DNA of 7,397 nucleotides, from positions 1-7,397 of IMG/VR virus record IMGVR_UViG_2531839585_000005. One strand, written 5' to 3'. The stretch comes from a virus. Lineage: Duplodnaviria > Heunggongvirae > Uroviricota > Caudoviricetes. The notes beneath the pieces are model-generated. The model did not search any database. It saw only the letters and a list, made by a program, of their open reading frames with translations, and was not told the DNA's origin. The position numbers and the translations under genes were made by a program. Of this stretch, positions 1-7,397 are shown one piece after another (the stretch's first letter is position 1; every line of letters begins with the position of its first letter).

Positions 1-151
1 CTGGATGACATCCGGGCGGGACGCATTGAGCGCGCCATTTCACGCTGTCGCAATATCTGGGCGTCCCTGCCGGGTGCCGGTTACGGTCAGCGTGAGCATT
101 CACTGGAAAAACTGGTCACCGTCTGGCGTACCGCGGGGCGTACCGGCTTAA
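1..151 (+). CDS. K: Phage endolysin, C-terminal part (lambda R / P2 K-type lysozyme); 5' end lies outside the window, 3' end uncertain
   Basis: Frame +1 from position 1 reads ...DDIRAGRIERAISRCRNIWASLPGAGYGQREHSLEKLVTVWRTAG..., matching the conserved C-terminal motif of lambda R-type endolysins (NIWASLPGAGYGQ.EH). Frame +1 has no stop until 229-231 and runs into the lysA ATG at 166. TAA codons sit in frame +2 at 149-151 and 158-160, so a 1-bp indel near 133-140 has probably displaced the true stop. Not in the ORF track because the start is outside the window. Confidence 0.65.
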   Translation, partial: WMTSGRDALSAPFHAVAISGRPCRVPVTVSVSIHWKNWSPSGVPRGVPA

Positions 152-165
152 ACGGAGTAAACACC

Positions 166-589
166 ATGAAGAAATTATCCCTTTCACTGATGCTGAACGT
201 GTCGCTGGCGCTGTGCTGGCACTGTCCCTGATTTACCCGCAGAGCGTGGCCGTCAGTTTTGTCGCCACCTGGGCGATTCTGGGACGGTTATCTGTGTGGT
301 TGCCGGTGGTGTCGGCGTGTATGCCACGGAGTATGTACTTGAACGCTACGGGCGGGAGCTGCCACCGGAATCGCTGGCCGTGAAGATTGTCACGTCGCTG
401 TTTTTGCAGCCGGTGCCGTGGCGCAGGCGGTCAGTGGCTCTGGTAGTGATGGTGGCGACGTTTATCTCGCTGGTCGCTGCCGGGTGGATTTTTACCGCGC
501 TGATTTATCTCGTGGCATCGGTGTTCTTCCGGCTGATACGTACGGCCTGCTGTCAGCGTTTTGAGGGGCGGGAACCATGTCAAAGCTGA
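166..589 (+). pseudogene. lysA: lysA-like lysis-timing membrane protein, frame-disrupted as sequenced (needs all three + frames)
   Basis: ATG at 166 sits 7-8 nt downstream of GGAG and opens MKKLSLSLMLNVSLAL in frame +1, which stops at 229-231. The continuation ...VLALSLIYPQSVAVSFVATWAILG is in frame +3 (about 213-283). The remainder, VICVVAGGVGVYATEYVLERYGRELPPESLAVKIVTSLFLQPVPWRRRSVALVVMVATFISLVAAGWIFTALIYLVASVFF..., is frame +2 and corresponds to track ORF 296-589. Hydrophobic segments fit a small membrane protein. The stop overlaps the lysB start. Position after the endolysin matches the P2 order K-lysA-lysB-lysC. Confidence 0.6.
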
Positions 590-1020
590 TGATTGTGCTG
601 GTTGTGTTGTTATCACTGGCGGTGGCCGGTCTGTTTCTGGTGAAACACAAAAATGCCAGCCTGCGCGCCTCGCTGGACAGGGCGAACAATGTCGCCAGCG
701 GGCAGCAGACGACCATCACCATGCTGAAAAATCAGCTTCATGTTGCCCTCACCAGGGCAGACAAAAACGAGATGGCGCAGGTGGCACTGCGTCAGGAACT
801 GGAGAACGCCGCGAAGCGTGAAGCACAGCGCGAGAAAACCATCACGAGGTTACTTAATGAAAACGAGGATTTCCGCCGCTGGTATGGCGCTGACCTGCCT
901 GATGCTGTGCGCCGGTTGCACCAGCGCCCCGCCTGCACCGACGCCAGTGATTGTCCACAACGCCTGCCCGAAAGTGAGTCTTTGCCCGATGCCGGGCAGC
1001 GACCCAGAGACGAACGGTGA
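577..1020 (+). CDS. lysB: LysB, Rz-like inner-membrane spanin (i-spanin)
   Basis: Intact 147-codon ORF. N-terminal MSKLMIVLVVLLSLAVAGLFLV is a single type-II membrane anchor, followed by a charged, helix-prone periplasmic domain (EMAQVALRQELENAAKREAQREK). GAGG lies upstream of the ATG. Sits in the P2 lysis cassette position and carries an embedded out-of-frame lipoprotein gene. Confidence 0.8.
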   Translation: MSKLMIVLVVLLSLAVAGLFLVKHKNASLRASLDRANNVASGQQTTITMLKNQLHVALTRADKNEMAQVALRQELENAAKREAQREKTITRLLNENEDFRRWYGADLPDAVRRLHQRPACTDASDCPQRLPESESLPDAGQRPRDER

Positions 1021-1147
1021 TTTAAGTGCCGATATCCGGCAGCTTGAGAACGCGCTGGCGCGCTGTGCCAGCCAGGTAAAAATGATTAAACACTGTCAGG
1101 ACGAAAACGATGCTCAAACCCGACAGCCTGCGCAGGGCGCTGACTGA
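857..1147 (+). CDS. lysC: LysC, Rz1-like outer-membrane lipoprotein spanin (o-spanin), starting inside lysB in the +1 frame
   Basis: ATG at 857 preceded by GAGG. Product MKTRISAAGMALTCLMLCAGCTSAPPAPTPV... has a lipoprotein signal peptide with a lipobox-like LCAGC and a proline-rich mature region. It is 96 aa, overlaps the lysB 3' end out of frame and extends past the lysB stop, which is the classic Rz/Rz1 overlapped architecture. The track ORF 740-1147 is the same frame with an upstream alternative start. Confidence 0.75.
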   Translation: MKTRISAAGMALTCLMLCAGCTSAPPAPTPVIVHNACPKVSLCPMPGSDPETNGDLSADIRQLENALARCASQVKMIKHCQDENDAQTRQPAQGAD

Positions 1148-1571
1148 TGCCGTCACGGTGCTGAAAACACCGAATGCTGCGGATATTCGTGGATACGGGA
1201 GTATTGCCTCCACGCTGGCGGCGTCGTTGTCATTCGAAAAGCGTTACACGCTCAATGTCATTGTGACCGACTTTACCGGTGATTTTGACCTGCTCATCGT
1301 GCCGGTGCTGGCGTGGCTGCGGGTAAATCAGCCCGACATCATGACCACCGACGCAGGTCAGAAAAAGGGCTTCACGTTTTATGCAGACATCAACAATGAC
1401 AGCAGCTTTGATATCAGCATCAGCCTGATGCTGACCGAGCGAACGCTGGTCAGTGAGGTGGACGGCGCGCTGCATGTGAAGAATATCCCGGAACCTCCGC
1501 CGCCGGAGCCGGTCACCCGCCCGATGGAGCTGTATATCAATGGCGAACTCGTGAGTAAGTGGGATGAATGA
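1110..1571 (+). CDS. R: Tail completion protein R
   Basis: Intact 153-codon ORF MLKPDSLRRALTDAVTVLK...FEKRYTLNVIVTDFTGDFDLLIVPVLAWL...PEPPPPEPVTRPMELYINGELVSKWDE, recognised as P2 gpR-family. Overlaps the lysC 3' end. Its stop is fused to the S start (ATGAATGA). Confidence 0.85.
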   Translation: MLKPDSLRRALTDAVTVLKTPNAADIRGYGSIASTLAASLSFEKRYTLNVIVTDFTGDFDLLIVPVLAWLRVNQPDIMTTDAGQKKGFTFYADINNDSSFDISISLMLTERTLVSEVDGALHVKNIPEPPPPEPVTRPMELYINGELVSKWDE

Positions 1572-2016
1572 GTTTAAGCGTTTTGAAGACCGGCTGACCG
1601 GACTGATTGAGTCGCTGTCACCGTCAGGGCGTCGGCGACTGAGTGCCGAACTGGCGAAACGTCTGCGGCAGAGTCAGCAGCGTCGGGTGATGGCACAGAA
1701 AGCCCCGGATGGCACACCCTATGCGCCACGCCAGCAGCAGAGCGCCAGAAAAAAGACCGGTCGCGTTAAGCGAAAAATGTTTGCGAAACTTATCACCAGT
1801 CGTTTTTTGCATATCCGCGCCAGCCCTGAACAGGCATCAATGGAGTTTTACGGCGGGAAGTCACCGAAAATAGCCAGTGTGCATCAGTTCGGTCTGTCGG
1901 AAGAAACCCGGAAAGACGGTAAGAAAATTGATTATCCGGCGCGTCCTCTGCTCGGCTTTACCGGTGAGGATGTGCAGATGATTGAAGAGATTATCCTGGC
2001 TCACCTCGACCGTTAG
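1564..2016 (+). CDS. S: Tail completion protein S
   Basis: Intact 150-codon ORF MNEFKRFEDRLTGLIESLSPSGRRRLSAELAKRLRQSQQRRV...PLLGFTGEDVQMIEEIILAHLDR, recognised as P2 gpS-family. Start overlaps the R stop, consistent with translational coupling. Confidence 0.85.
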   Translation: MNEFKRFEDRLTGLIESLSPSGRRRLSAELAKRLRQSQQRRVMAQKAPDGTPYAPRQQQSARKKTGRVKRKMFAKLITSRFLHIRASPEQASMEFYGGKSPKIASVHQFGLSEETRKDGKKIDYPARPLLGFTGEDVQMIEEIILAHLDR

Positions 2017-2082
2017 TTGTGCCATTCCCGACACCTCATCGTTACATTGCCGCCGGTATGACCCGGCGGCATCCTTCCCGTT
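2017..2082 (+). promoter_or_regulatory. S-V intergenic region with an 8-bp GC-rich hairpin (2049-2056 / 2063-2070) and a TGT-N10-ACA partial dyad (2018-2033); candidate late-operon promoter or RNA element for the V-W-J-I-H-G operon
   Basis: GCCGCCGG (2049-2056) and CCGGCGGC (2063-2070) are exact reverse complements around a 6-nt loop, with no following T-run. TGT at 2018-2020 and ACA at 2031-2033 resemble the TGT-N12-ACA Ogr-box of P2 late promoters, but the spacing is 10 nt rather than 12. In P2 a late promoter lies upstream of V. Confidence 0.3.
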
Positions 2083-2710
2083 ATGAACACTCTCGCAAAT
2101 ATCCAGGAACTCGCGCGCGCACTGCGCAACATGATCCGCACCGGCCTTGTCGTCGAAACCAACCTTAAAGCCGGTCGCTGCCGTGTGCAGACCGGCGGCA
2201 TGTGCACCGACTGGCTTCAGTGGCTGACTCGTGCCGGGCGTTCGCGCACTGGTGGGCACCTTCCGTGGGGGACAGGTGCTGATTCTGGCCGTGGGCGGTG
2301 AACTCGACACGGCGTTCGTTCTGCCGGGGATTTATTCCGGTGATAACCCCGCGCCGTCTGCGTCGGCGGATGCCCTGCATATCCGTTTCCCTGACGGGGC
2401 GGTGATTGAGTATGAACCCGAAACCAGCGCACTCACGGTAAGCGGAATTAAAACGGCCAGCGTGACGGCTTCTGATTCTGTTACTGCCACGGTGCCGGTG
2501 GTCACGGTGAAAGCATCAACCCGCGTACCCTGGACACACCGGAGGTGGTTGCACCAACAGGCTGATTACGGCACGCTGGAAGTGCAGAAGGGCGGGACGA
2601 TGCGCGGCAACATTGAACACACCGGCGGTGAACTCTCATCAAACGGTAAGGTACTGCATACCCATAAACACCCCGGCGACAGCGGCGGCACAACCGGGAG
2701 CCCTCTATGA
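2083..2710 (+). pseudogene. V: Baseplate spike / central hub protein V, frame-disrupted as sequenced
   Basis: Frame +1 ORF 2083-2301 gives MNTLANIQELARALRNMIRTGLVVETNLKAGRCRVQTGGMCTDWLQWLTRAGRSRT..., the gpV N-terminus. The continuation WWAPSVG is in frame +3, then QVLILAVGGELDTAFVLPGIYSGDNPAPSASADALHIRFPDGAVIEYEPETSALTVSGIKTASVTASDSVTATVPVVTVKASTRV is in frame +2 (track ORF 2231-2710). A second cluster at about 2525-2575 passes through frames +1 (TLDTPEVV) and +3 (CTNRLIT) before returning to +2 (GTLEVQKGGTMRGNIEHTGGELSSNGKVLHTHKHPGDSGGTTGSPL). The stop overlaps the W start (ATGA). Confidence 0.8.
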
Positions 2711-3054
2711 CAGCGCGTTATCTCGGAATGAATCGCAGTGATGGCCTGACTGTCACTGACCTTGAGCATATCAGCCAGAGTATCGGCGATATCCTGCGCA
2801 CACCGGTCGGCTCACGGGTGATGCGTCGTGATTACGGCTCGTTGCTGGCGTCAATGATTGACCAGCCGCAGACCCCGGCGCTTGAGTTGCAGATTAAGGT
2901 CGCCTGTTACATGGCGGTGCTGAAATGGGAACCCCGCGTCACCCTGTCATCCGTCACCACTGAGCGCAGTTTTGACGGGCGAATGACAGTTACGTTAACC
3001 GGCCAGCACAACGACACCGGCCAGCCACTTTCGTTAACCATCCCTGTGAGTTGA
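2707..3054 (+). CDS. W: Baseplate wedge protein W (T4 gp25-like)
   Basis: Intact 115-codon ORF MTARYLGMNRSDGLTVTDLEHISQSIGDILRTPVGSRVMRRDYGSLLASMIDQPQTP...SLTIPVS, recognised as P2 gpW-family with the expected length. Start overlaps the V stop. Confidence 0.9.
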   Translation: MTARYLGMNRSDGLTVTDLEHISQSIGDILRTPVGSRVMRRDYGSLLASMIDQPQTPALELQIKVACYMAVLKWEPRVTLSSVTTERSFDGRMTVTLTGQHNDTGQPLSLTIPVS

Positions 3055-3058
3055 AACC

Positions 3059-3949
3059 ATGCCGATTATCGACCTGAACCAGCTACCTGCACCGGATGTG
3101 GTCGAGGAGCTGGACTTTGAAACCATTCTTGCTGAACGCAAGGCGACACTGATTTCTCTTTACCCGGAAGACCAGCAGGAGGCGGTCGCCCGTACCCTGA
3201 CGCTGGAATCTGAGCCTCTCGCCAAACTGCTGGAGGAAAATGCTTATCGTGAGCTTATCTGGCGTCAGCGTGTGAATGAGGCCGCACGGGCGGTGATGCT
3301 GGCCTGTGCCGCCGGTAATGACCTTGATGTGATTGGTGCCAATTACAACACCACGCGCCTGACTATCACCCCGGCAGATGATTCGACCATTCCGCCGACA
3401 CCGGCAGTGATGGAATCTGACACCGATTATCGTCTGCGTATTCAGCAGGCGTTTGAGGCTTAAGCGTCGCCGGGTCGGTGGGGCTATCAGTATCATGGTC
3501 GCAGTGCCGACGGGCGTGTCGCGGATATTCTGTACCAGTCCGTCTCCGGCCTGCGTCACCATCTCGTGCTGTCACGTGAAAATAACGGTGTGCATCCGAA
3601 GACTGCTGGCGGGTGCGTAACGCCCTTAATGGCGAGGACGTCAGGCCGGTGGCCGACCGCGTGACCGTGCAGTCTGCCGCCATGTTGAATACCAGATAAA
3701 CGCCACGCTTTACCTTTACCCTGGTCCCGAAAGGAACCCATCCGCGCGCCGCCGTGAAAAAACTGGAAGCTAATCACGGCACAGCACCGGCTGGGGCGGA
3801 CATCCGTCTGTCTGCCATTTATGCCGCTTTGCATGTGGAAGGGTGCAGCGTGTCGAACTGGCTGCACCCTGGCCGACATCGTGCTCAACAGTACGCAGGC
3901 GTCTTTCTGTACCGAATACCGCGTCGTGACCGGAGGCTCGGATGAGTGA
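3059..3949 (+). pseudogene. J: Baseplate protein J, intact for the first ~134 codons, then heavily frame-disrupted
   Basis: Frame +2 ORF 3059-3463 gives MPIIDLNQLPAPDVVEELDFETILAERKATLISLYPEDQQEAVARTLTLESEPLAKLLEENAYRELIWRQRVNEAARAVMLACAAGNDLDVIGANYNTTRLTITPADDSTIPPTPAVMESDTDYRLRIQQAFE and then hits TAA. Downstream, recognisable gpJ segments appear piecemeal across all three + frames: YQYHGRSADGRVADI, TSPSPACVTIS, VLSRENNGV, VRNALNGEDVRPVADRVTVQSAA, VEYQINATLYLYPGPE, VKKLEA, ITAQHRLGR, DIRLSAIYAALHVEG, LADIVLNSTQASFCTEYRVVTGGSDE. The final segment is in frame with a TGA at 3947-3949 that overlaps the I start. Full-length gpJ is about 300 aa as I recall. Confidence 0.8.
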
Positions 3950-4472
3950 TTCGCGACTGCTGCCGACCGGCTCATCACCGCTTGAAGTCGCCGCCGCAAA
4001 AGCCTGTGCGGAAATTGAAAAAACGCCGGTCAGTATTCGTGAGCTGTGGAACCCGGATACCTGTCCGGCAAATCTGCTGCCGTGGCTGGCGTGGGCGTTT
4101 TCGGTCGACAGGTGGGATGAAAAGTGGCCGGAAGCGACAAAACGCGCCGTTATCCGCGATGCCTATTTCATCCACTGTCATAAAGGCACAATAGGTGCAA
4201 TCCGGCGTGTGGTGGAGCCGCTCGGCTATCTCATCAACGTGACGGAGTGGTGGGAAAACAGTGACCCGCCCGGCACCTTCCGGCTTGATATTGGTGTACT
4301 GGAAAGCGGCATCACAGAGGCAATGTATCAGGAAATGGAACGGCTGATTGCTGATGCCAAACCTGCAAGCCGTCACCTTATTGGCCTGAACATTACCCGG
4401 GACATTCCCGGCTACCTGTTCGCCGGTGGTGTGGCTTACGACGGCGATGTAATTACGGTTTATCCCGGATAA
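3942..4472 (+). CDS. I: Baseplate protein I
   Basis: Intact 176-codon ORF MSDSRLLPTGSSPLEVAAAKACAEIEKTPVSIRELWNPDTCPANLLPWLAWAFSVDRWDEKWPEATKRAVIRDAYFIHCHKGTIGAIRRVVEPLGYLINVTEWWENSDPPGTFRLDIGVLESG..., recognised as P2 gpI-family with the expected length. Start overlaps the J 3' end. Confidence 0.9.
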   Translation: MSDSRLLPTGSSPLEVAAAKACAEIEKTPVSIRELWNPDTCPANLLPWLAWAFSVDRWDEKWPEATKRAVIRDAYFIHCHKGTIGAIRRVVEPLGYLINVTEWWENSDPPGTFRLDIGVLESGITEAMYQEMERLIADAKPASRHLIGLNITRDIPGYLFAGGVAYDGDVITVYPG

Positions 4473-4482
4473 GTGAGGAATA

Positions 4483-6648
4483 ATGAGCACAAAATTCAGA
4501 ACCGTTATCACCACTGCCGGTGCAGCAAAGCTGGCAGCGGCAACCGCGCCGGGAGGGCGGAAGGTCAACATTACCACGATGGCCGTCGGGGATGGCGGTG
4601 GTAAATTGCCTGTCCCGGATGCCGGACAGACCGGGCTTATCCACGAAGTCTGGCGACATGCGCTGAACAAAATCAGCCAGGACAAACGAAACAGTAATTA
4701 TATTATCGCAGAGCTGGTTATTCCGCCGGAGGTGGGCGGTTTCTGGATGCGTGAACTTGGCCTGTACGATGATGCGGGAACTAATTGCCGTGGCGAACAT
4801 GGCCGAAAGTTATAAGCCAGCCTTGCCGAAGGCTCAGGGCGTTCGCAGACCTGCGCATGGTCATCATCGTCAGCAGTGTGGCCTCAGTGGGCTGACCATT
4901 GACACCACAACGGTGATGGCACGCAGGATTACGTTGATGACAAAATTGCAGACATGAACAGTCACGACGTCACCCGACGCCTCGCTGACCGCAAAAGGTT
5001 TTACTCAGTTAAGCATGCGACCAACAGCACGTCTGAAACACTGGCCGCAACGCCGAAAGCGGTAAAGGCCGCGTATGACTTGCTAACGGGAAATAACGCC
5101 AGGAGCCACCAAGCGCGAAAAGGCCTTGTCCAGCTCAGTAGGCCACCAACAGCGATTCTGAAACGCTTGCGGCAACGCCAAAGGCGGTTAAGACAGCGTA
5201 TGACCTTGCTAACGGGAAATACACTGCACAGGAGCCACCACGCGCGAAAGGTCTTGTCAGCTCAGTAGCGCCACCAACAGGATTCTGAAACGCTGGCTGC
5301 AACATCAAAAGCGGTGAAGTCTGCCTATGACAATGCTGAAAAACGTCTTCAGAAAGATCAGAACGGTGCGGATATTCCGGGAAAGGATACCTTCACGAAA
5401 AATATCGGTGCCTGTCGTGCTTATAGCGGCGCTTTGAGCACTGAAGCCGGAAACTGGACAACCGCTCAGTTTATTGAATGGCTGGATTCCCGTGGTGCAT
5501 TTAATCATCCGTACTGGATGTGCAAAGGCTCCTGGTCATATGCAAATAACAAAATCATTACGGATACCGGATGTGGTGATATCCACCTGGCTGGTTGTGT
5601 CGTCGAGGTCATGGGAACTAAATCTGCAATCACTATTCGAGTGACCACGCCGACAACATCAAGTGGTGGCGGTACAACCAGCGCGCAATTCACTTACATA
5701 AATCATGGGGACGGCTACTCCCCCGGCTGGCGTCGTGACTGGAATCGTCAGGGCGACGCAATGACCGGAACGATTAATCAGGATGGCGGAAGCCAGAATG
5801 CCTATATGTCTACGGCCTTATGTTCAGGCACCAGAGGCGGCAAAAAATATCTCAGAAAGTTTCGTGGTGGAGAAGGAGACACTATCTGGCATGAAACAGT
5901 ACAGGGCGGGGTAATTCGCTGGGCGACAGGAAACTATGACGCTCAGGAAGAATTATCACTCAGCTCCGCTTATGGTCTCCGTTCAAGAGGTGAGATTACA
6001 TCACTCAGTGCTAATGGTCTGCGCATTGCTTATGGCAATTATGGATTCTTTATCAGGAATGATGGCGGCAGCACATATTTAATGCTGACGGCCTCTGGCG
6101 ATAAATTAGGCACATAGAACAATTTAAGACCGCTGACTATAAATAACGCCAAGGGCGCAGTATCAATGGGGCATGGCCTGAATGTTACTGGTGATATTGT
6201 CTCAAGTACCAAAGTACGTGCCGGTAGCGGGAAAAAATTCACGGTCAGCAGCAGTAATACATCCACGAAGGAAGCCGCATTCAATTTGTGGGGAAACTCA
6301 AGTCGTCCGGTGGTGGCTGAATTAGGTGATGATGCAGGCTGGCATTTTTACAGTCAGAGAAATACAGATAACAGCATCACGTTTGCTGTTAACGGTCAGG
6401 TATCACCATCTAACTATAGTAATTTTGATTCACGCTATGTCCGGGATATCCGGCTTGGTGGTGCTGCCACATACAAACCTGCGAACAATGGCATGACATG
6501 GACACATCAGGCACCGTCCGGGTGTGTATATTCCGGCATTATTGTTCAGGATACCGGCTCAAACTCTGCCGATAACATTGGTGGCATATATTACAGACCG
6601 GTGCAGAAATACATTAACGGGACTTGGTATAACGTGGCGCAGGTATAA
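4483..6648 (+). pseudogene. H: Tail fibre protein H (mosaic). 5' third is frame-disrupted, one in-frame TAG at 6115-6117, otherwise continuous
   Basis: ATG at 4483 preceded by GAGG. Frame +1 reads MSTKFRTVITTAGAAKLAAATAPGGRKVNITTMAVGDGGGKLPVPDAGQTGLIHEVWRHALNKISQDKRNSNYIIAELVIPPEVGGFWMRELGLYDDAGT, the gpH N-terminus. From about 4778 the continuation (LIAVANMAESYKPAL, LAEGSGR, RMVIIVSSVASV, LTIDTTTVMA, then the ATNSTSETLAATPKAVK repeats) is scattered over three frames up to about 5280. From 5281 to 6648 a single frame +1 runs cleanly apart from the TAG at 6115-6117 (track ORFs 5314-6117 and 6166-6648). The C-terminus ...NFDSRYVRDIRLG...RPVQKYINGTWYNVAQV is the conserved P2-H-type tail-fibre terminus. 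Confidence 0.85.
5006..5337 (+). repeat. Three imperfect direct tandem repeats of ~126 bp inside H, encoding a repeated tail-fibre motif
   Basis: Copy 1 about 5006-5130, copy 2 about 5131-5258, copy 3 (partial, diverging) about 5259-5337. Each encodes a variant of QLSSATNS(T/D)SETLAAT(P/S)KAVK(A/T/S)AYDLANGKYTAQEATTARKGLV. The copies differ by substitutions and 1-bp indels. Confidence 0.7.
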
Positions 6649-6651
6649 TTT

Positions 6652-7179
6652 ATGCAGCATTTGATAAATATAACGGCAGGTAATCCAAAAACGGTTGAAC
6701 AATATCAATTGACAAAGGACTTTGATGTTGTCTGGTTTTTTTCAGAAGATGGTAAGAACTGGTACGAAGAACAAAAGTATTTTGCTGATGACACGATAAA
6801 AATAGCGTACGACAAAGATAATATCATCCGCTATGTGGAAAAGGATGTGACAGCTATCAGACCGGATGGATTAAGTGTGGTTGAAGTGGCGGATATTACT
6901 GCTAACCGACGGGCGGATATTTCAGGGGGCTGGATGTTTAAGGACGGCAAAGTGATTAAACGCATTTATACGGCAGATGAATTGCGGCGGCAGGCAGAAA
7001 TTCGGAAAGTCAGACTTCTTGCAGATGCTGAATCCGTGATTTTGCCGCTGGAGCGCGCTGTCAGGCTGAACATGGCAACAGATGAGGAGCGTAGCCGACT
7101 GGAAGCATGGGAGCGTTACAGCGTTCTGGTCAGTCGTGTGGATCCTGCAAATCCTGAATGGCCGGAAATGCCGCAATAA
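6652..7179 (+). CDS. G: Tail fibre assembly protein G (Tfa-type chaperone)
   Basis: Intact 175-codon ORF starting 3 nt after the H stop: [44 protein letters not shown]...[42 protein letters not shown]. The C-terminal half is recognised as the P2 gpG/Tfa family. Position immediately 3' of the tail-fibre gene fits. Confidence 0.9.
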
Positions 7180-7213
7180 GTTGTATGAGTTCTGGTGTGA
7201 GCTTACACATCTA

Positions 7214-7255
7214 TGGCACAGAGTAAAGCCTAATCTGACAGTTCGCTCTGTGCCA
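7214..7255. repeat. Perfect 10-bp inverted repeat (TGGCACAGAG / CTCTGTGCCA) separated by 22 nt, in the A+T-rich region after G
   Basis: Positions 7214-7223 and 7246-7255 are exact reverse complements. No T-run follows, so it is not a canonical intrinsic terminator. It could be a protein-binding site, an RNA stem-loop at the operon 3' end, or the junction of inserted DNA. Confidence 0.5.
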
Positions 7256-7397
7256 AGAGCGGACGTTACTACTACTCGACCTAAAGTAAAGCAATTGTAC
7301 TCATTAAATAGTGGTAATTGGGTCTGGTGCTTAATCGAACGAAATCTCATGTTAGGCGAAAAAAACGTCTGAAAAATCGATTAACACATACACCTGT

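What the first reader, a model, noticed from the sequence alone, without database searches (positions are those of the whole stretch)
7180..7397. A+T-rich non-coding DNA after G: likely edge of the variable accessory locus of P2-like phages, truncated by the window
After the G stop (7179) the sequence becomes A+T-rich, with stop codons in all six frames near the window end and no credible ORF. In P2 the position between G and the sheath gene FI holds the non-essential Z/fun gene, and in P2-like prophages this position is described as a variable cargo or anti-phage-defence hotspot. If this element carries an uncharacterised system, it most likely starts just past position 7397. Nothing in the window itself encodes one.
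Basis: partly seen in the sequence, partly recalled or inferred. Interest (0 to 1): 0.6.

Follow-up and report, generated by a model that had tools for sequence, protein, structure and literature searches.

The report
Left edge of P2 cargo hotspot
The 218 bases after the tail-fibre assembly gene are the left border of the well-known variable "Z/fun" cargo slot of P2-like prophages: a conserved palindromic boundary site, then the non-coding start of a gene cassette that, in near-identical relatives, carries two uncharacterised nuclease-like candidate defence genes.

Summary
G ends at 7179. The tail has 40.8% GC against 54.6% upstream, stops in all six frames, and no credible ORF.

The window is a whole 7,397-bp draft contig, so the cut is an assembly break. 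Homology to other P2-like phages ends at about 7255-7267. Bases 7268-7397 are 100% identical to 8 complete E. coli genomes; 5 more carry a 98.6% variant. In all 13, the sheath gene FI starts 3.5 kb after G.

That island holds two separable cassettes:
- a 311-aa protein with a remote Mrr-like PD-(D/E)xK fold;
- a 288-aa HEPN (invariant Rx4H) plus zinc-ribbon protein.

Neither matches a validated defence system.

Window 7241-7264 is a 9-6-9 palindrome (GTTCGCTCT-GTGCCA-AGAGCGGAC). It forms the core of the left arm of a 36-nt inverted repeat that brackets this hotspot in 73 loci with 45 distinct cargo junctions. Copies also separate cassettes inside composite islands. The same site family flanks cargo in lambdoid prophages (K-12 Qin flxA), in a Serratia chromosome and in other Proteobacteria.

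Both the hotspot and its flanking inverted repeats were already published. The cargo, and possibly the breadth of the site family, are the new parts. No recombinase was identified.

The parts
6652..7179 (+). Gene G, tail fibre assembly protein (175 aa); last gene before the hotspot
   Evidence: ORF; Pfam Caudo_TAP; 96% identical DNA annotated 'tail fiber assembly' in P2-like phages
7180..7255 (.). Conserved P2-backbone 3' flank of G. It runs up to and including the outer half-site and spacer of the boundary site.
   Evidence: 596 E. coli genomes match the start of the finding region, most listed ones over only about the first 88-91 nt. Alignments A1 and A5. Per-position conservation is at least 0.9 up to arm position 24 (window 7255) and drops at position 25.
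7232..7267 (.). Left arm of the 36-nt inverted repeat that brackets the G-FI hotspot (AATCTGACAGTTCGCTCTGTGCCAAGAGCGGACGTT). The partner arm lies about 220 nt upstream of FI in full-length relatives.
   Evidence: the repeat finder I1 in L001: 40 nt, 80% complementary, 3,232 nt apart. Score 20 against 14.0 +/- 1.7 in 100 shuffles, reached by 1 of 100. Both arms are present in 73 loci with 45 distinct junction pairs.
7241..7264 (.). Palindromic 9-6-9 boundary site, 'L-type': GTTCGCTCT / GTGCCA / AGAGCGGAC. Candidate recombination site; it also forms an RNA hairpin on the + strand (stem spans 7236-7268).
   Evidence: Site scans: 43 L-type spacers GTGCCA and 30 R-type TCGCTC in 42 distinct hotspots; random expectation 0.04-0.36 sites per 10 kb. 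RNA fold -16.8 kcal/mol, z = -3.4, 0 of 200 shuffles as stable; the - strand is not significant.
7268..7397 (+). First 130 nt of cassette 'A': non-coding leader of a 311-aa Mrr-like nuclease-domain gene whose start codon would lie 258 nt beyond the contig end. By conservation the cassette-specific part may begin at 7256, the inner half-site.
   Evidence: 100% identical to L001 12089-12218. 87% identical, as part of a 1,463-nt block, to the Serratia marcescens chromosome at L006 5603-7064. No phage record matches it. No promoter, terminator or Rfam hit.

Best explanation
Window 7180-7397 is the left border of the Z/fun accessory-gene hotspot of a P2-like (Peduovirus) prophage, cut off by the end of a draft contig. 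It has three layers.

(1) 7180-7255 is backbone 3' flank of gene G.

(2) 7241-7264 is a 9-6-9 palindromic site (spacer GTGCCA). It is the core of the left arm (7232-7267) of the inverted repeats that flank every cargo at this hotspot. Cassettes are gained, lost and swapped at these sites.

(3) 7268-7397 is the non-coding leader of a 1.44-kb cassette.

By inference from 130/130 identical bases, the source genome continues as in E. coli 120899. Cassette A encodes a 311-aa protein with an N-terminal PD-(D/E)xK nuclease fold and a helical C-terminal domain. An internal R-type site (spacer TCGCTC) follows. Then comes cassette B, encoding a 288-aa HEPN protein with an RNNLQH motif plus three zinc ribbons. 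After it come the right arm, a terminator-like hairpin, the FI upstream region and FI.

Shown: the location, the junctions, the site architecture, the modularity and the domain folds.

Inferred: that the two genes are expressed from the prophage and protect the lysogen against other phages by cleaving DNA (A) or RNA (B). Also inferred: that exchange at the sites is site-specific, by a recombinase acting in trans.
For: Context and identity:
- The window is the whole contig APZI01000619.1.
- It is 96.6-97.4% identical to the prophage in L001.

Island:
- It is annotated in L001 and L002 and present complete in 13 of 5,426 E. coli genomes.
- Its GC is 39.7% against 53% for the prophage.

Junction and sites:
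- The junction is mapped in A1 and A5.
- Internal sites were found only in larger islands: 8 of the 14 distinct hotspots of at least 2.3 kb, against none of those below 2.3 kb apart from one threshold-level hit with an atypical spacer.

Cassette mobility:
- Cassette A is 87% identical in a Serratia chromosome. There it is flanked by its own L-type and R-type sites with the same spacers but different outer half-sites.
- Cassette B occurs alone behind other cargo in 15 genomes, again preceded by an R-type site.
- Homologues of A occur without B, and homologues of B without A.
- An independent cassette (flxA) is 98.8% identical between a P2-like hotspot and the K-12 Qin prophage, with homology ending at the two sites.

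Protein A:
- Model pLDDT is 90.5. The top fold hits are MspJI, EcoO109I, Avs4, Card1 and Cap4 nuclease domains.
- E19, D49, Q63 and K65 are invariant.

Protein B:
- Model pLDDT is 87.7. The fold hits are HepT toxins and Csm6.
- PADLOC candidate PDC-S64 matches at 4e-21 over the HEPN part.
- R119, N120, Q123, H124 and the cysteines are invariant.

Literature:
- The hotspot is described in the papers read.
- The flanking inverted repeats and exchange with bacterial genomes are described in PMC8987985, citing Nilsson 2004.
Against: - The source genome beyond 7397 was not seen. Continuation is inferred from 130 identical bases.
- No recombinase was identified. No serine recombinase gene lies near most sites.
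- The arms show no covariation with each other.
- Protein A misses Pfam Mrr_cat: 0 hits for the protein itself, and 3 of 56 relatives at E of 4e-4 or weaker.
- Protein B is below the Pfam HEPN threshold (14.9 against 22 bits).
- The fold-search E-values are weak (7.8e-3 and 0.11).
- No validated defence family matches either protein, and no experiment on either was found.
- Between sites in other genomes, gene content includes housekeeping genes such as nadA, so the sites are not specific to defence cargo.
- No convincing sigma-70 promoter was found upstream of gene A.
Confidence: 0.85

Rival explanations
1. The palindromes are not recombinase sites. They are portable hairpins (3' mRNA stabilisers or weak terminators/insulators) that travel with genes. 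Cassette exchange is ordinary or short-homology recombination between these 24-36-nt shared sequences, as with boundary sequences in mosaic phages.
For: The left site forms a stable hairpin only on the G-sense RNA strand. Sites sit just after gene 3' ends in many genomes, next to ordinary genes such as nadA. No nearby recombinase was found. There is no arm-to-arm covariation.
Against: No U-tract follows the hairpin, and the terminator scan does not call it. Spacers fall into only two or three invariant classes. Conservation drops exactly at the spacer/inner half-site boundary on both arms. The sequence is conserved across alpha-, beta- and gamma-proteobacteria, which an RNA stem alone does not require. 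Copy number is low, a median of 1 per matching E. coli genome.
Confidence: 0.35
2. The contig ends at 7397 because the prophage is truncated or rearranged there in the source genome (IS insertion, deletion, repeat collapse). Under this reading the A/B island does not follow.
For: The contig ends 130 nt into the cargo. The assembly is of poor quality: 51 single- or few-base deletions in 5.3 kb relative to L001. Degraded P2 remnants exist, such as L025, which lacks FI.
Against: The 130 cargo bases are 100% identical to the intact island. Every complete genome with this edge has the whole island. No repeat or IS end is visible at the contig end.
Confidence: 0.1
3. The tail is a plain intergenic spacer and the sheath gene follows almost at once.
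For: None was found. It is logically possible only because the window ends.
Against: In the 10 G-FI intervals measured directly, the gap from the G stop to the FI start was 1,061-3,578 nt. Across 72 loci the distance between the two flanking sites was never below 724 nt. No 'empty' site was found in IMG/VR. The cargo-specific sequence begins inside the window.
Confidence: 0.02
4. The 96-aa ORF 7082-7372 (+), or the 142-aa ORF 6922-7350 (-), is a real overlapping gene.
For: Both are open in the window and in L001.
Against: Both overlap G out of frame or antisense. Both cross the backbone/cargo junction, so they cannot be conserved in P2-likes carrying other cargo. The 96-aa ORF has no PHROG match (the 142-aa ORF was not scanned).
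Confidence: 0.02

Closest known systems
Z/fun locus (hotspot 2) of phage P2 and P2-like coliphages (Calendar 1998; Nilsson 2004; Vassallo 2022)
   Same: Same position between G and FI, same conserved flanks, low-GC foreign cargo, flanking inverted repeats, and exchange with bacterial chromosomes.
   Different: The cargo is not fun. P2's fun-type cargo lies on the other strand. Here there are two plus-strand genes in two cassettes. None of the PD-T4, PD-T7 or PD-lambda systems reported from this hotspot matches (PADLOC).
pdif modules of Acinetobacter plasmids and integron gene cassettes (from my own knowledge, not checked here)
   Same: Small promoter-poor cassettes are bounded by short palindromic sites with a 6-nt central region. 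Arrays show site-cassette-site-cassette order. The same cassette is found in unrelated replicons.
   Different: The site sequence is unlike dif/pdif or attC. No XerCD-type half-sites are present. No integrase is linked. The recombinase is unknown.
Res/crossover sites of small serine recombinases such as gamma-delta resolvase site I (from memory)
   Same: Inverted 12-nt half-sites begin YGTCYG. Total length is about 30 bp. Both spacer classes have a central GC dinucleotide.
   Different: The resemblance is only a 6-nt motif recalled from memory. Serine recombinase genes lie within 8 kb of only 2 of 71 site-bearing loci.
HEPN ribonuclease defence/toxin proteins (HepT of MntA-HepT, Csm6, PADLOC candidates PDC-S64, PDC-S19, HEC-08)
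   Same: Protein B has a helical HEPN fold, an invariant Rx4H motif, and an N-terminal match to PDC-S64 at 4e-21.
   Different: The C-terminal half is three zinc ribbons (TFIIB-type ribbon, E = 0.0011) and is not covered by PDC-S64. No MNT antitoxin or CARF domain is present. The family is small, with 16 clusters at E of 1e-30 or better among 1.84 billion representatives.
Mrr-like PD-(D/E)xK nuclease effector domains (Mrr, MspJI, Avs4, Card1, Cap4)
   Same: The N-terminal 150 aa of protein A have the fold and a D...QxK motif. UniRef names some relatives 'Restriction endonuclease type IV Mrr domain'.
   Different: It is below the Pfam thresholds. The C-terminal helical domain (residues 158-311) has no recognisable relative. 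It has no ATPase, SAVED or CARF partner domain. It stands alone as a single gene in Serratia and Vibrio.

Membership tests
P2 Z/fun cargo hotspot | Lies directly after the tail fibre assembly gene G of a P2-like late region | tested here: met
   G at 6652-7179; gene order lysA-lysB/C-R-S-V-W-J-I-H-G in the window
P2 Z/fun cargo hotspot | Bounded on the other side by the sheath gene FI | tested here: inconclusive
   Not visible in the window because the contig ends. Met in all 13 complete genomes with the same edge and in L005.
P2 Z/fun cargo hotspot | Content differs between otherwise collinear relatives; low GC | tested here: met
   45 distinct junction pairs in 73 loci; different annotated cargo; island GC 39.7% against 53%
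P2 Z/fun cargo hotspot | Cargo flanked by inverted repeats (Nilsson 2004, as cited in PMC8987985) | tested here: met
   Left arm at window 7232-7267; both arms present in all 73 loci in which a right arm could be located
Validated anti-phage defence systems (PADLOC-DB v2.0.0) | Significant match of a cargo protein to a model of a named, validated system | tested here: not met
   Protein A: no hit. Protein B: hits only to candidate families (PDC-S64, HEC-08, PDC-S19) and weak HEPN/Csm6 models.
PADLOC candidate PDC-S64 | Full-length match to the 339-position profile | tested here: not met
   Only residues 1-139 of B match profile positions 1-129. The HEPN domain is shared and the rest differs.
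HEPN domain ribonucleases | Rx4-6H catalytic motif in a four-helix HEPN fold | tested here: met
   RNNLQH, with R119, N120, Q123 and H124 invariant in 29 sequences. Fold hits to HepT, AF_0298 and Csm6 with probability 0.87-0.95 but E = 0.1-0.4.
HEPN domain ribonucleases | Pfam HEPN (PF05168) gathering score | tested here: not met
   14.9 bits against a cut-off of 22
Mrr-like PD-(D/E)xK restriction endonuclease domain | Pfam Mrr_cat or Mrr_cat_2 match | tested here: not met
   No hit for protein A at E <= 1, nor for its 99% relative P0001 at E <= 0.01; 3 of 56 relatives for each family, best E = 4e-4
Mrr-like PD-(D/E)xK restriction endonuclease domain | alpha-beta-beta-beta-alpha-beta core with E...D...(E/Q)xK residues | tested here: met
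   Model pLDDT 90.5. Top PDB hits MspJI (E = 7.8e-3, probability 1.0), EcoO109I, Avs4 and Card1. E19, D49, Q63 and K65 invariant.
Intrinsic (rho-independent) terminator | GC-rich hairpin followed by a U-tract | tested here: not met
   The hairpin at 7236-7268 is stable but is followed by CUACUAC, and the scan does not call it. A canonical terminator-like site lies instead after the right arm (L001 15426-15442).
Site-specific recombination core site | Two inverted half-sites around a short central region; breakpoints at the central region; cognate recombinase | tested here: inconclusive
   The 9-6-9 (12-6-12) architecture and the breakpoints at sites are met. The recombinase is not identified. 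Strand exchange cannot be tested with these tools.
Rfam RNA families | Covariance-model match | tested here: not met
   Only one chance-level hit (E = 0.33), elsewhere in the island

The most novel reading that the evidence does not exclude
The 24-30-nt palindrome at window 7241-7264 belongs to a widespread, so far unnamed family of cassette-boundary sites (consensus AAY-GTCYGCTYT-N6-ARAGCRGAC-RTT, with spacer classes GTGCCA, TCGCTC and GGGTCA). At these sites an unidentified recombinase acting in trans would move promoter-poor gene cassettes between P2-like phages, lambdoid prophages, plasmids and chromosomes across several classes of Proteobacteria. Cassettes A and B would then be two new single-gene anti-phage nucleases delivered by this system.
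Probability: 0.3. Interest if true: 0.75.

Novelty: new member of a known kind. Interest (0 to 1): 0.42.

Why it matters
For the finding as given, little changes. It is a correct call of a known hotspot, and the interesting genes lie outside the window.

Three things follow from the work.

1. Two uncharacterised candidate defence genes sit in a hotspot that has already yielded validated systems. They can be tested directly. Both are mainly carried by enterotoxigenic E. coli prophages.

2. The island is built from separately mobile cassettes, so guilt-by-association should be applied per cassette and not per island.

3. The boundary site is precise and recognisable. It recurs in lambdoid prophages (including the K-12 Qin relBE/flxA region), plasmids and distant Proteobacteria. 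If a dedicated enzyme acts on it, it would explain how phage 'moron' and defence cargo is exchanged so cleanly. It would also give a sequence tag for finding cargo slots in any genome.

Tried and rejected
- Rfam on the whole G-FI interval: nothing.
- Promoter/terminator scan: no plus-strand promoter in the leader, and the left hairpin is not terminator-like.
- Long-range pairing of the two arms: rejected. There is no covariation at any variable position, and the four mismatches are fixed.
- Search for an 'empty' hotspot with adjacent arms in IMG/VR: one unrelated chance hit and nothing else.
- A and B as a two-gene system: rejected. Each occurs without the other, and the neighbours of B homologues are unrelated to A.
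- The small minus-strand ORF (L001 13689-13994) as a conserved partner of B: no similarity to the ORF at the same place in Raoultella and no family hit.
- Tn3-type inverted repeats or target-site duplications around the arms: none seen by eye in the sequences.
- A serine recombinase encoded near the sites: 2 of 71 site-bearing loci against 0 of 49 without a site, too few to say.
- Full-text search for the site sequence: no paper.
- Nilsson 2004 could not be read.
- A or B in isolated phages (INPHARED): absent, apart from one distant non-phage hit.
- A REP-like high-copy repeat: rejected for E. coli, with a median of one copy per matching genome.

Full report
**1. What the window is**

The window is a complete 7,397-bp contig, APZI01000619.1 of assembly GCA_000356865.2. 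Its end is therefore an assembly break, not a biological end. It carries the late genes of a P2-like (Peduovirus) prophage, from lysA through R, S, V, W, J, I and H to G. It is 96.6-97.4% identical to a prophage in E. coli 120899, fetched as L001.

Over the first 5.3 kb the window differs from L001 by 51 indels. All are deletions in the window, and only 3 lie in homopolymer runs. This explains the split V, J and H reading frames as probable sequencing errors. The 218-nt tail has no indel against L001.

**2. The observation**

G is ORF 6652-7179, and its stop ends at 7179. Bases 7180-7397 are 40.8% GC against 54.6% upstream. Only 2.9% of equal-sized windows in the contig are as low.

All six frames contain stops. 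The two mechanical ORFs that reach into the region (96 aa on +, 142 aa on -) overlap G and cross the cargo junction; the 96-aa one has no PHROG match.

GC already falls from about 5300, within the H 3' part and G. The first third of the region is conserved backbone, not cargo.

**3. Where the backbone ends**

Phage records align with the window only up to about 7252-7267. Bases 7240-7397 match no phage record, even at low stringency.

Among 5,426 complete E. coli genomes, 596 match the start of the region. Most of those listed align over only about its first 88-91 nt. Only 13 share all 218 nt.

In alignments with loci that hold other cargo, similarity stops at 7255-7267. All five differences between the window and L001 lie in the backbone part. 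The cargo part, 7268-7397, is 130/130 identical.

**4. What follows in relatives**

In L001, G ends at 12000 and the sheath gene FI starts at 15548. L002 has the same layout, with FI 3,530 nt after G.

The 3.2-kb insert (L001 12089-15295) is 39.7% GC against 53% for the prophage. It holds three annotated or mechanical ORFs:
- gene A, 12476-13411, 311 aa;
- a small minus-strand ORF, 13689-13994;
- gene B, 14196-15062, 288 aa.

Downstream, about 250 nt of conserved backbone contain a terminator-like hairpin with a T-run (15426-15442) and the FI upstream region.

The complete island occurs in 13 genomes, 8 at 100% and 5 at 98.6% identity. These are mostly ETEC strains. It also occurs in a metagenome contig and in several IMG/VR prophages.

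**5. The cargo is two independent cassettes**

- Fifteen further E. coli genomes carry only the right 56% of the island (the small ORF plus B). It sits behind different genes (DUF2971, DUF4236 and an S1 peptidase) in a degraded P2 remnant.
- The left 1.44 kb (L001 12089-13530) includes the window's 130 nt. It is 87% identical over 1,463 nt to the Serratia marcescens chromosome, where gene A sits alone between LacI-type and LysR-type regulator genes.
- A 54% homologue of A stands without B in Vibrio.
- B homologues lie in Klebsiella plasmids and in Serratia and Raoultella islands. Their neighbours are unrelated to A.
- The small ORF is not conserved next to B homologues.

**6. The proteins**

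Protein A:
- It has no Pfam, NCBIfam or PADLOC hit. It belongs to PHROG 8991, of unknown function.
- Its AlphaFold model has pLDDT 90.5. The N-terminal domain matches PD-(D/E)xK nucleases: MspJI (E = 7.8e-3, probability 1.0), EcoO109I, and the nuclease domains of Avs4, Card1, Cap4 and LlaBIII.
- E19, D49, Q63 and K65 are invariant in 56 relatives.
- Only 3 of 56 relatives touch each of Mrr_cat and Mrr_cat_2, at E of 4e-4 or weaker.
- The helical C-terminal half has no recognisable relative.

Protein B:
- It belongs to PHROG 20819, of unknown function.
- Its N-terminal HEPN domain matches PADLOC candidate PDC-S64 at 4e-21 over residues 1-139 only. It also matches HEC-08 and PDC-S19, with weak hits to Csm6 models. 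The Pfam HEPN score is sub-threshold.
- The RNNLQH motif is invariant.
- The model has pLDDT 87.7 and resembles HepT toxins and Csm6, although the E-values are only 0.1-0.4.
- The C-terminal half holds twelve conserved cysteines in three ribbon-like units. A TFIIB-type ribbon matches at E = 0.0011.
- The family is small: 16 clusters at E of 1e-30 or better, 52 at 1e-10 or better and 640 at 1e-3 or better, among 1.84 billion representatives.

Neither protein is a member of any validated defence system in PADLOC. A defence role is an inference from domain type and location.

**7.

A repeat search on the G-FI interval found a 40-nt, 80% complementary inverted repeat whose arms bracket the island exactly. 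Its score is 20 against 14.0 +/- 1.7 in shuffles, and 1 of 100 shuffles reaches it. The left arm is window 7232-7267.

I collected further loci with an exact-match scan of IMG/VR for the left arm. Both arms are present in 73 loci with 45 distinct junction pairs, and the two arm cores lie 0.7-5.9 kb apart. The consensus sequences are:
- left arm: AATCTGACAGTCCGCTCTGTGCCAGGAGCGGACGTT;
- reverse complement of the right arm: AATCTGACAGTCTGCTTTGAGCGAGAAGCGGACGTT.

Four mismatches between the arms are fixed. The variable positions of the two arms do not covary. This argues against long-range pairing and for sequence-level conservation of each arm.

Each arm is itself a palindrome: a 9-nt half-site, a 6-nt spacer and a 9-nt half-site. 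In the window it reads GTTCGCTCT-GTGCCA-AGAGCGGAC at 7241-7264. There are two spacer classes:
- GTGCCA next to G (L-type);
- TCGCTC next to FI (R-type).

Their counts are 43 and 30 in 42 distinct hotspots. The random expectation is 0.04-0.36 sites per 10 kb.

Conservation is at least 0.9 up to arm position 24 and drops at position 25, the spacer/inner half-site boundary, on both arms. The outer half-site therefore stays with the phage, and the inner half-site varies with the cargo.

Eight of the 14 distinct hotspots of at least 2.3 kb contain internal copies of a site between their gene modules. Those below 2.3 kb contain none, apart from one threshold-level hit with an atypical spacer. In L001 an R-type copy at 13502 separates cassettes A and B. 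In Serratia, cassette A has its own L-type and R-type sites, with the same spacers but different outer half-sites.

On the G-sense RNA strand, the left site also folds into a 13-bp hairpin of -16.8 kcal/mol (z = -3.4). No U-tract follows it. The other strand and the right arm are not significant.

**8. Beyond P2**

A review (PMC8987985, citing Nilsson et al. [quoted passage not shown] The bracket is therefore known in principle. I could not read the 2004 paper.

I scanned species-representative genomes with only the spacer plus the inner half-site. In 66 of them the unconstrained outer half-site completes the palindrome; by my own binomial estimate about 3% would do so by chance. The extended consensus is AAY-GTCYGCTTT-GTGCCA-RAAGCGGAC-RTT.

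Judging by the record titles, the hosts span Enterobacterales, Alphaproteobacteria and Betaproteobacteria. Further sites often lie 0.7-6 kb away. R-L doublets 40-42 nt apart also occur.

In E. coli the site is low-copy. It matches in 3,674 of 5,426 genomes, with a median of 1 place and a maximum of 7, and 203 places are on plasmids.

- The K-12 copy lies in the Qin prophage beside relBE, under the annotated 'ydfV'.
- In another lambdoid prophage, an L-type and an R-type site flank a DUF4209/DUF7380 gene at the same place.
- The clearest case is the flxA cassette. The 1-kb cargo of one P2-like hotspot (L057) is 98.8% identical to K-12 Qin ydfV-flxA. Homology begins at the L site and ends in the R site, and the outside flanks are unrelated.

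Gene content between sites elsewhere is mixed. It includes a transposase, nadA, transporters and an autotransporter. The sites are therefore not a defence-specific signal.

No recombinase gene is consistently nearby. No paper in the library contains the site sequence.

**9. Interpretation**

With high confidence, the 218 nt consist of backbone flank, the left boundary site and the leader of cassette A. With good confidence, the source genome continues with cassettes A and B.

How the sites work is open. The architecture, the discrete spacer classes, the sharp breakpoints and the shared cassettes in unrelated replicons favour site-specific recombination by an enzyme acting in trans. The rival is portable hairpins serving as short homology for general recombination, perhaps doubling as RNA 3' structures. 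That rival is not excluded.

The resemblance of the half-site start (YGTCYG) to resolvase half-sites rests only on my memory. It is a lead, not a test.

**10. Verdict**

The in-window content is a boundary and not a system. The cargo just outside is a new, untested pair of nuclease-type candidates. The boundary-site family may be broader than has been described.

Noticed in passing
window 1-5331 (for example 2229-2273, 3456-3869, 4782-5281): 51 indels relative to the 97%-identical prophage in L001. All are deletions in the window and only 3 lie in homopolymers. They split V (2083-2301 / 2231-2710), J (3059-3463, then a gap) and H (4483-4815, 4799-4957, 5314-6117, 6166-6648). They look like assembly or sequencing errors rather than pseudogenes.
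   Followed up: partly
window 5300-7179: GC falls to 44-48%, with a minimum of 34% near 6607, across the 3' part of H and G. This stretch is only 81% identical to L002 while the rest of the backbone is 96% identical. This suggests a separately exchanged receptor-binding module.
   Followed up: no
L244 4002-5019 (E. coli K-12 Qin prophage, ydfV-flxA) and L057 about 3334-4351: The flxA cassette of Qin is 98.8% identical to the cargo of a P2-like Z/fun hotspot, and the homology is bounded by the L-type and R-type sites. The annotated gene 'ydfV' overlies the palindromic site, so it may not be a real gene.
   Followed up: partly
L245 4002-6105 (lambdoid prophage, E. coli MLI106K1): A DUF7380/DUF4209 protein gene (595 aa) is flanked by an L-type site (4002) and an R-type site (6082). 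It occupies the position that relBE/flxA occupy in K-12 Qin, which points to a second prophage cargo slot using the same sites.
   Followed up: partly
L124-L243 (GTDB species representatives): Complete palindromic sites (AAY-GTCYGCTTT-GTGCCA-RAAGCGGAC-RTT) are present in 66 of 120 loci from Alpha-, Beta- and Gammaproteobacteria. A third spacer class, GGGTCA, appears in loci that the record titles mark mainly as alphaproteobacterial. R-L doublets 40-42 nt apart occur in Citrobacter (L194) and Pantoea (L201). What the element is and which enzyme acts on it are unknown.
   Followed up: partly
L074 (and L068, L082, L089, L118): Some P2-like hotspots carry two copies of the whole left arm about 1.2 kb apart. 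A few of these loci (L068, L082, L089) encode a serine recombinase a few kb away. The iLund4u preprint notes that invertases are often encoded in this locus.
   Followed up: no
L001 15426-15442: A conserved GC-rich hairpin with a T-run lies after the right arm and before FI. It is the only canonical terminator-like site in the interval, so plus-strand cargo may be read through from the V-G late operon up to this point.
   Followed up: no
L002 6129-6914 and L021, L023, L024 (between S and V): A 261-aa minus-strand hypothetical gene occupies the orf30 variable position in some relatives. It is absent from the window (S ends at 2016, V starts at 2083) and from L001.
   Followed up: no
L013 3911-7500 and L015 2137-3702: B homologues in a Klebsiella plasmid and a Serratia chromosome sit next to an SMC_N/AAA_15 ATPase gene. 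In Klebsiella a 362-aa unknown gene ends 2 nt before B, possibly in an operon. These may be defence-island contexts.
   Followed up: no
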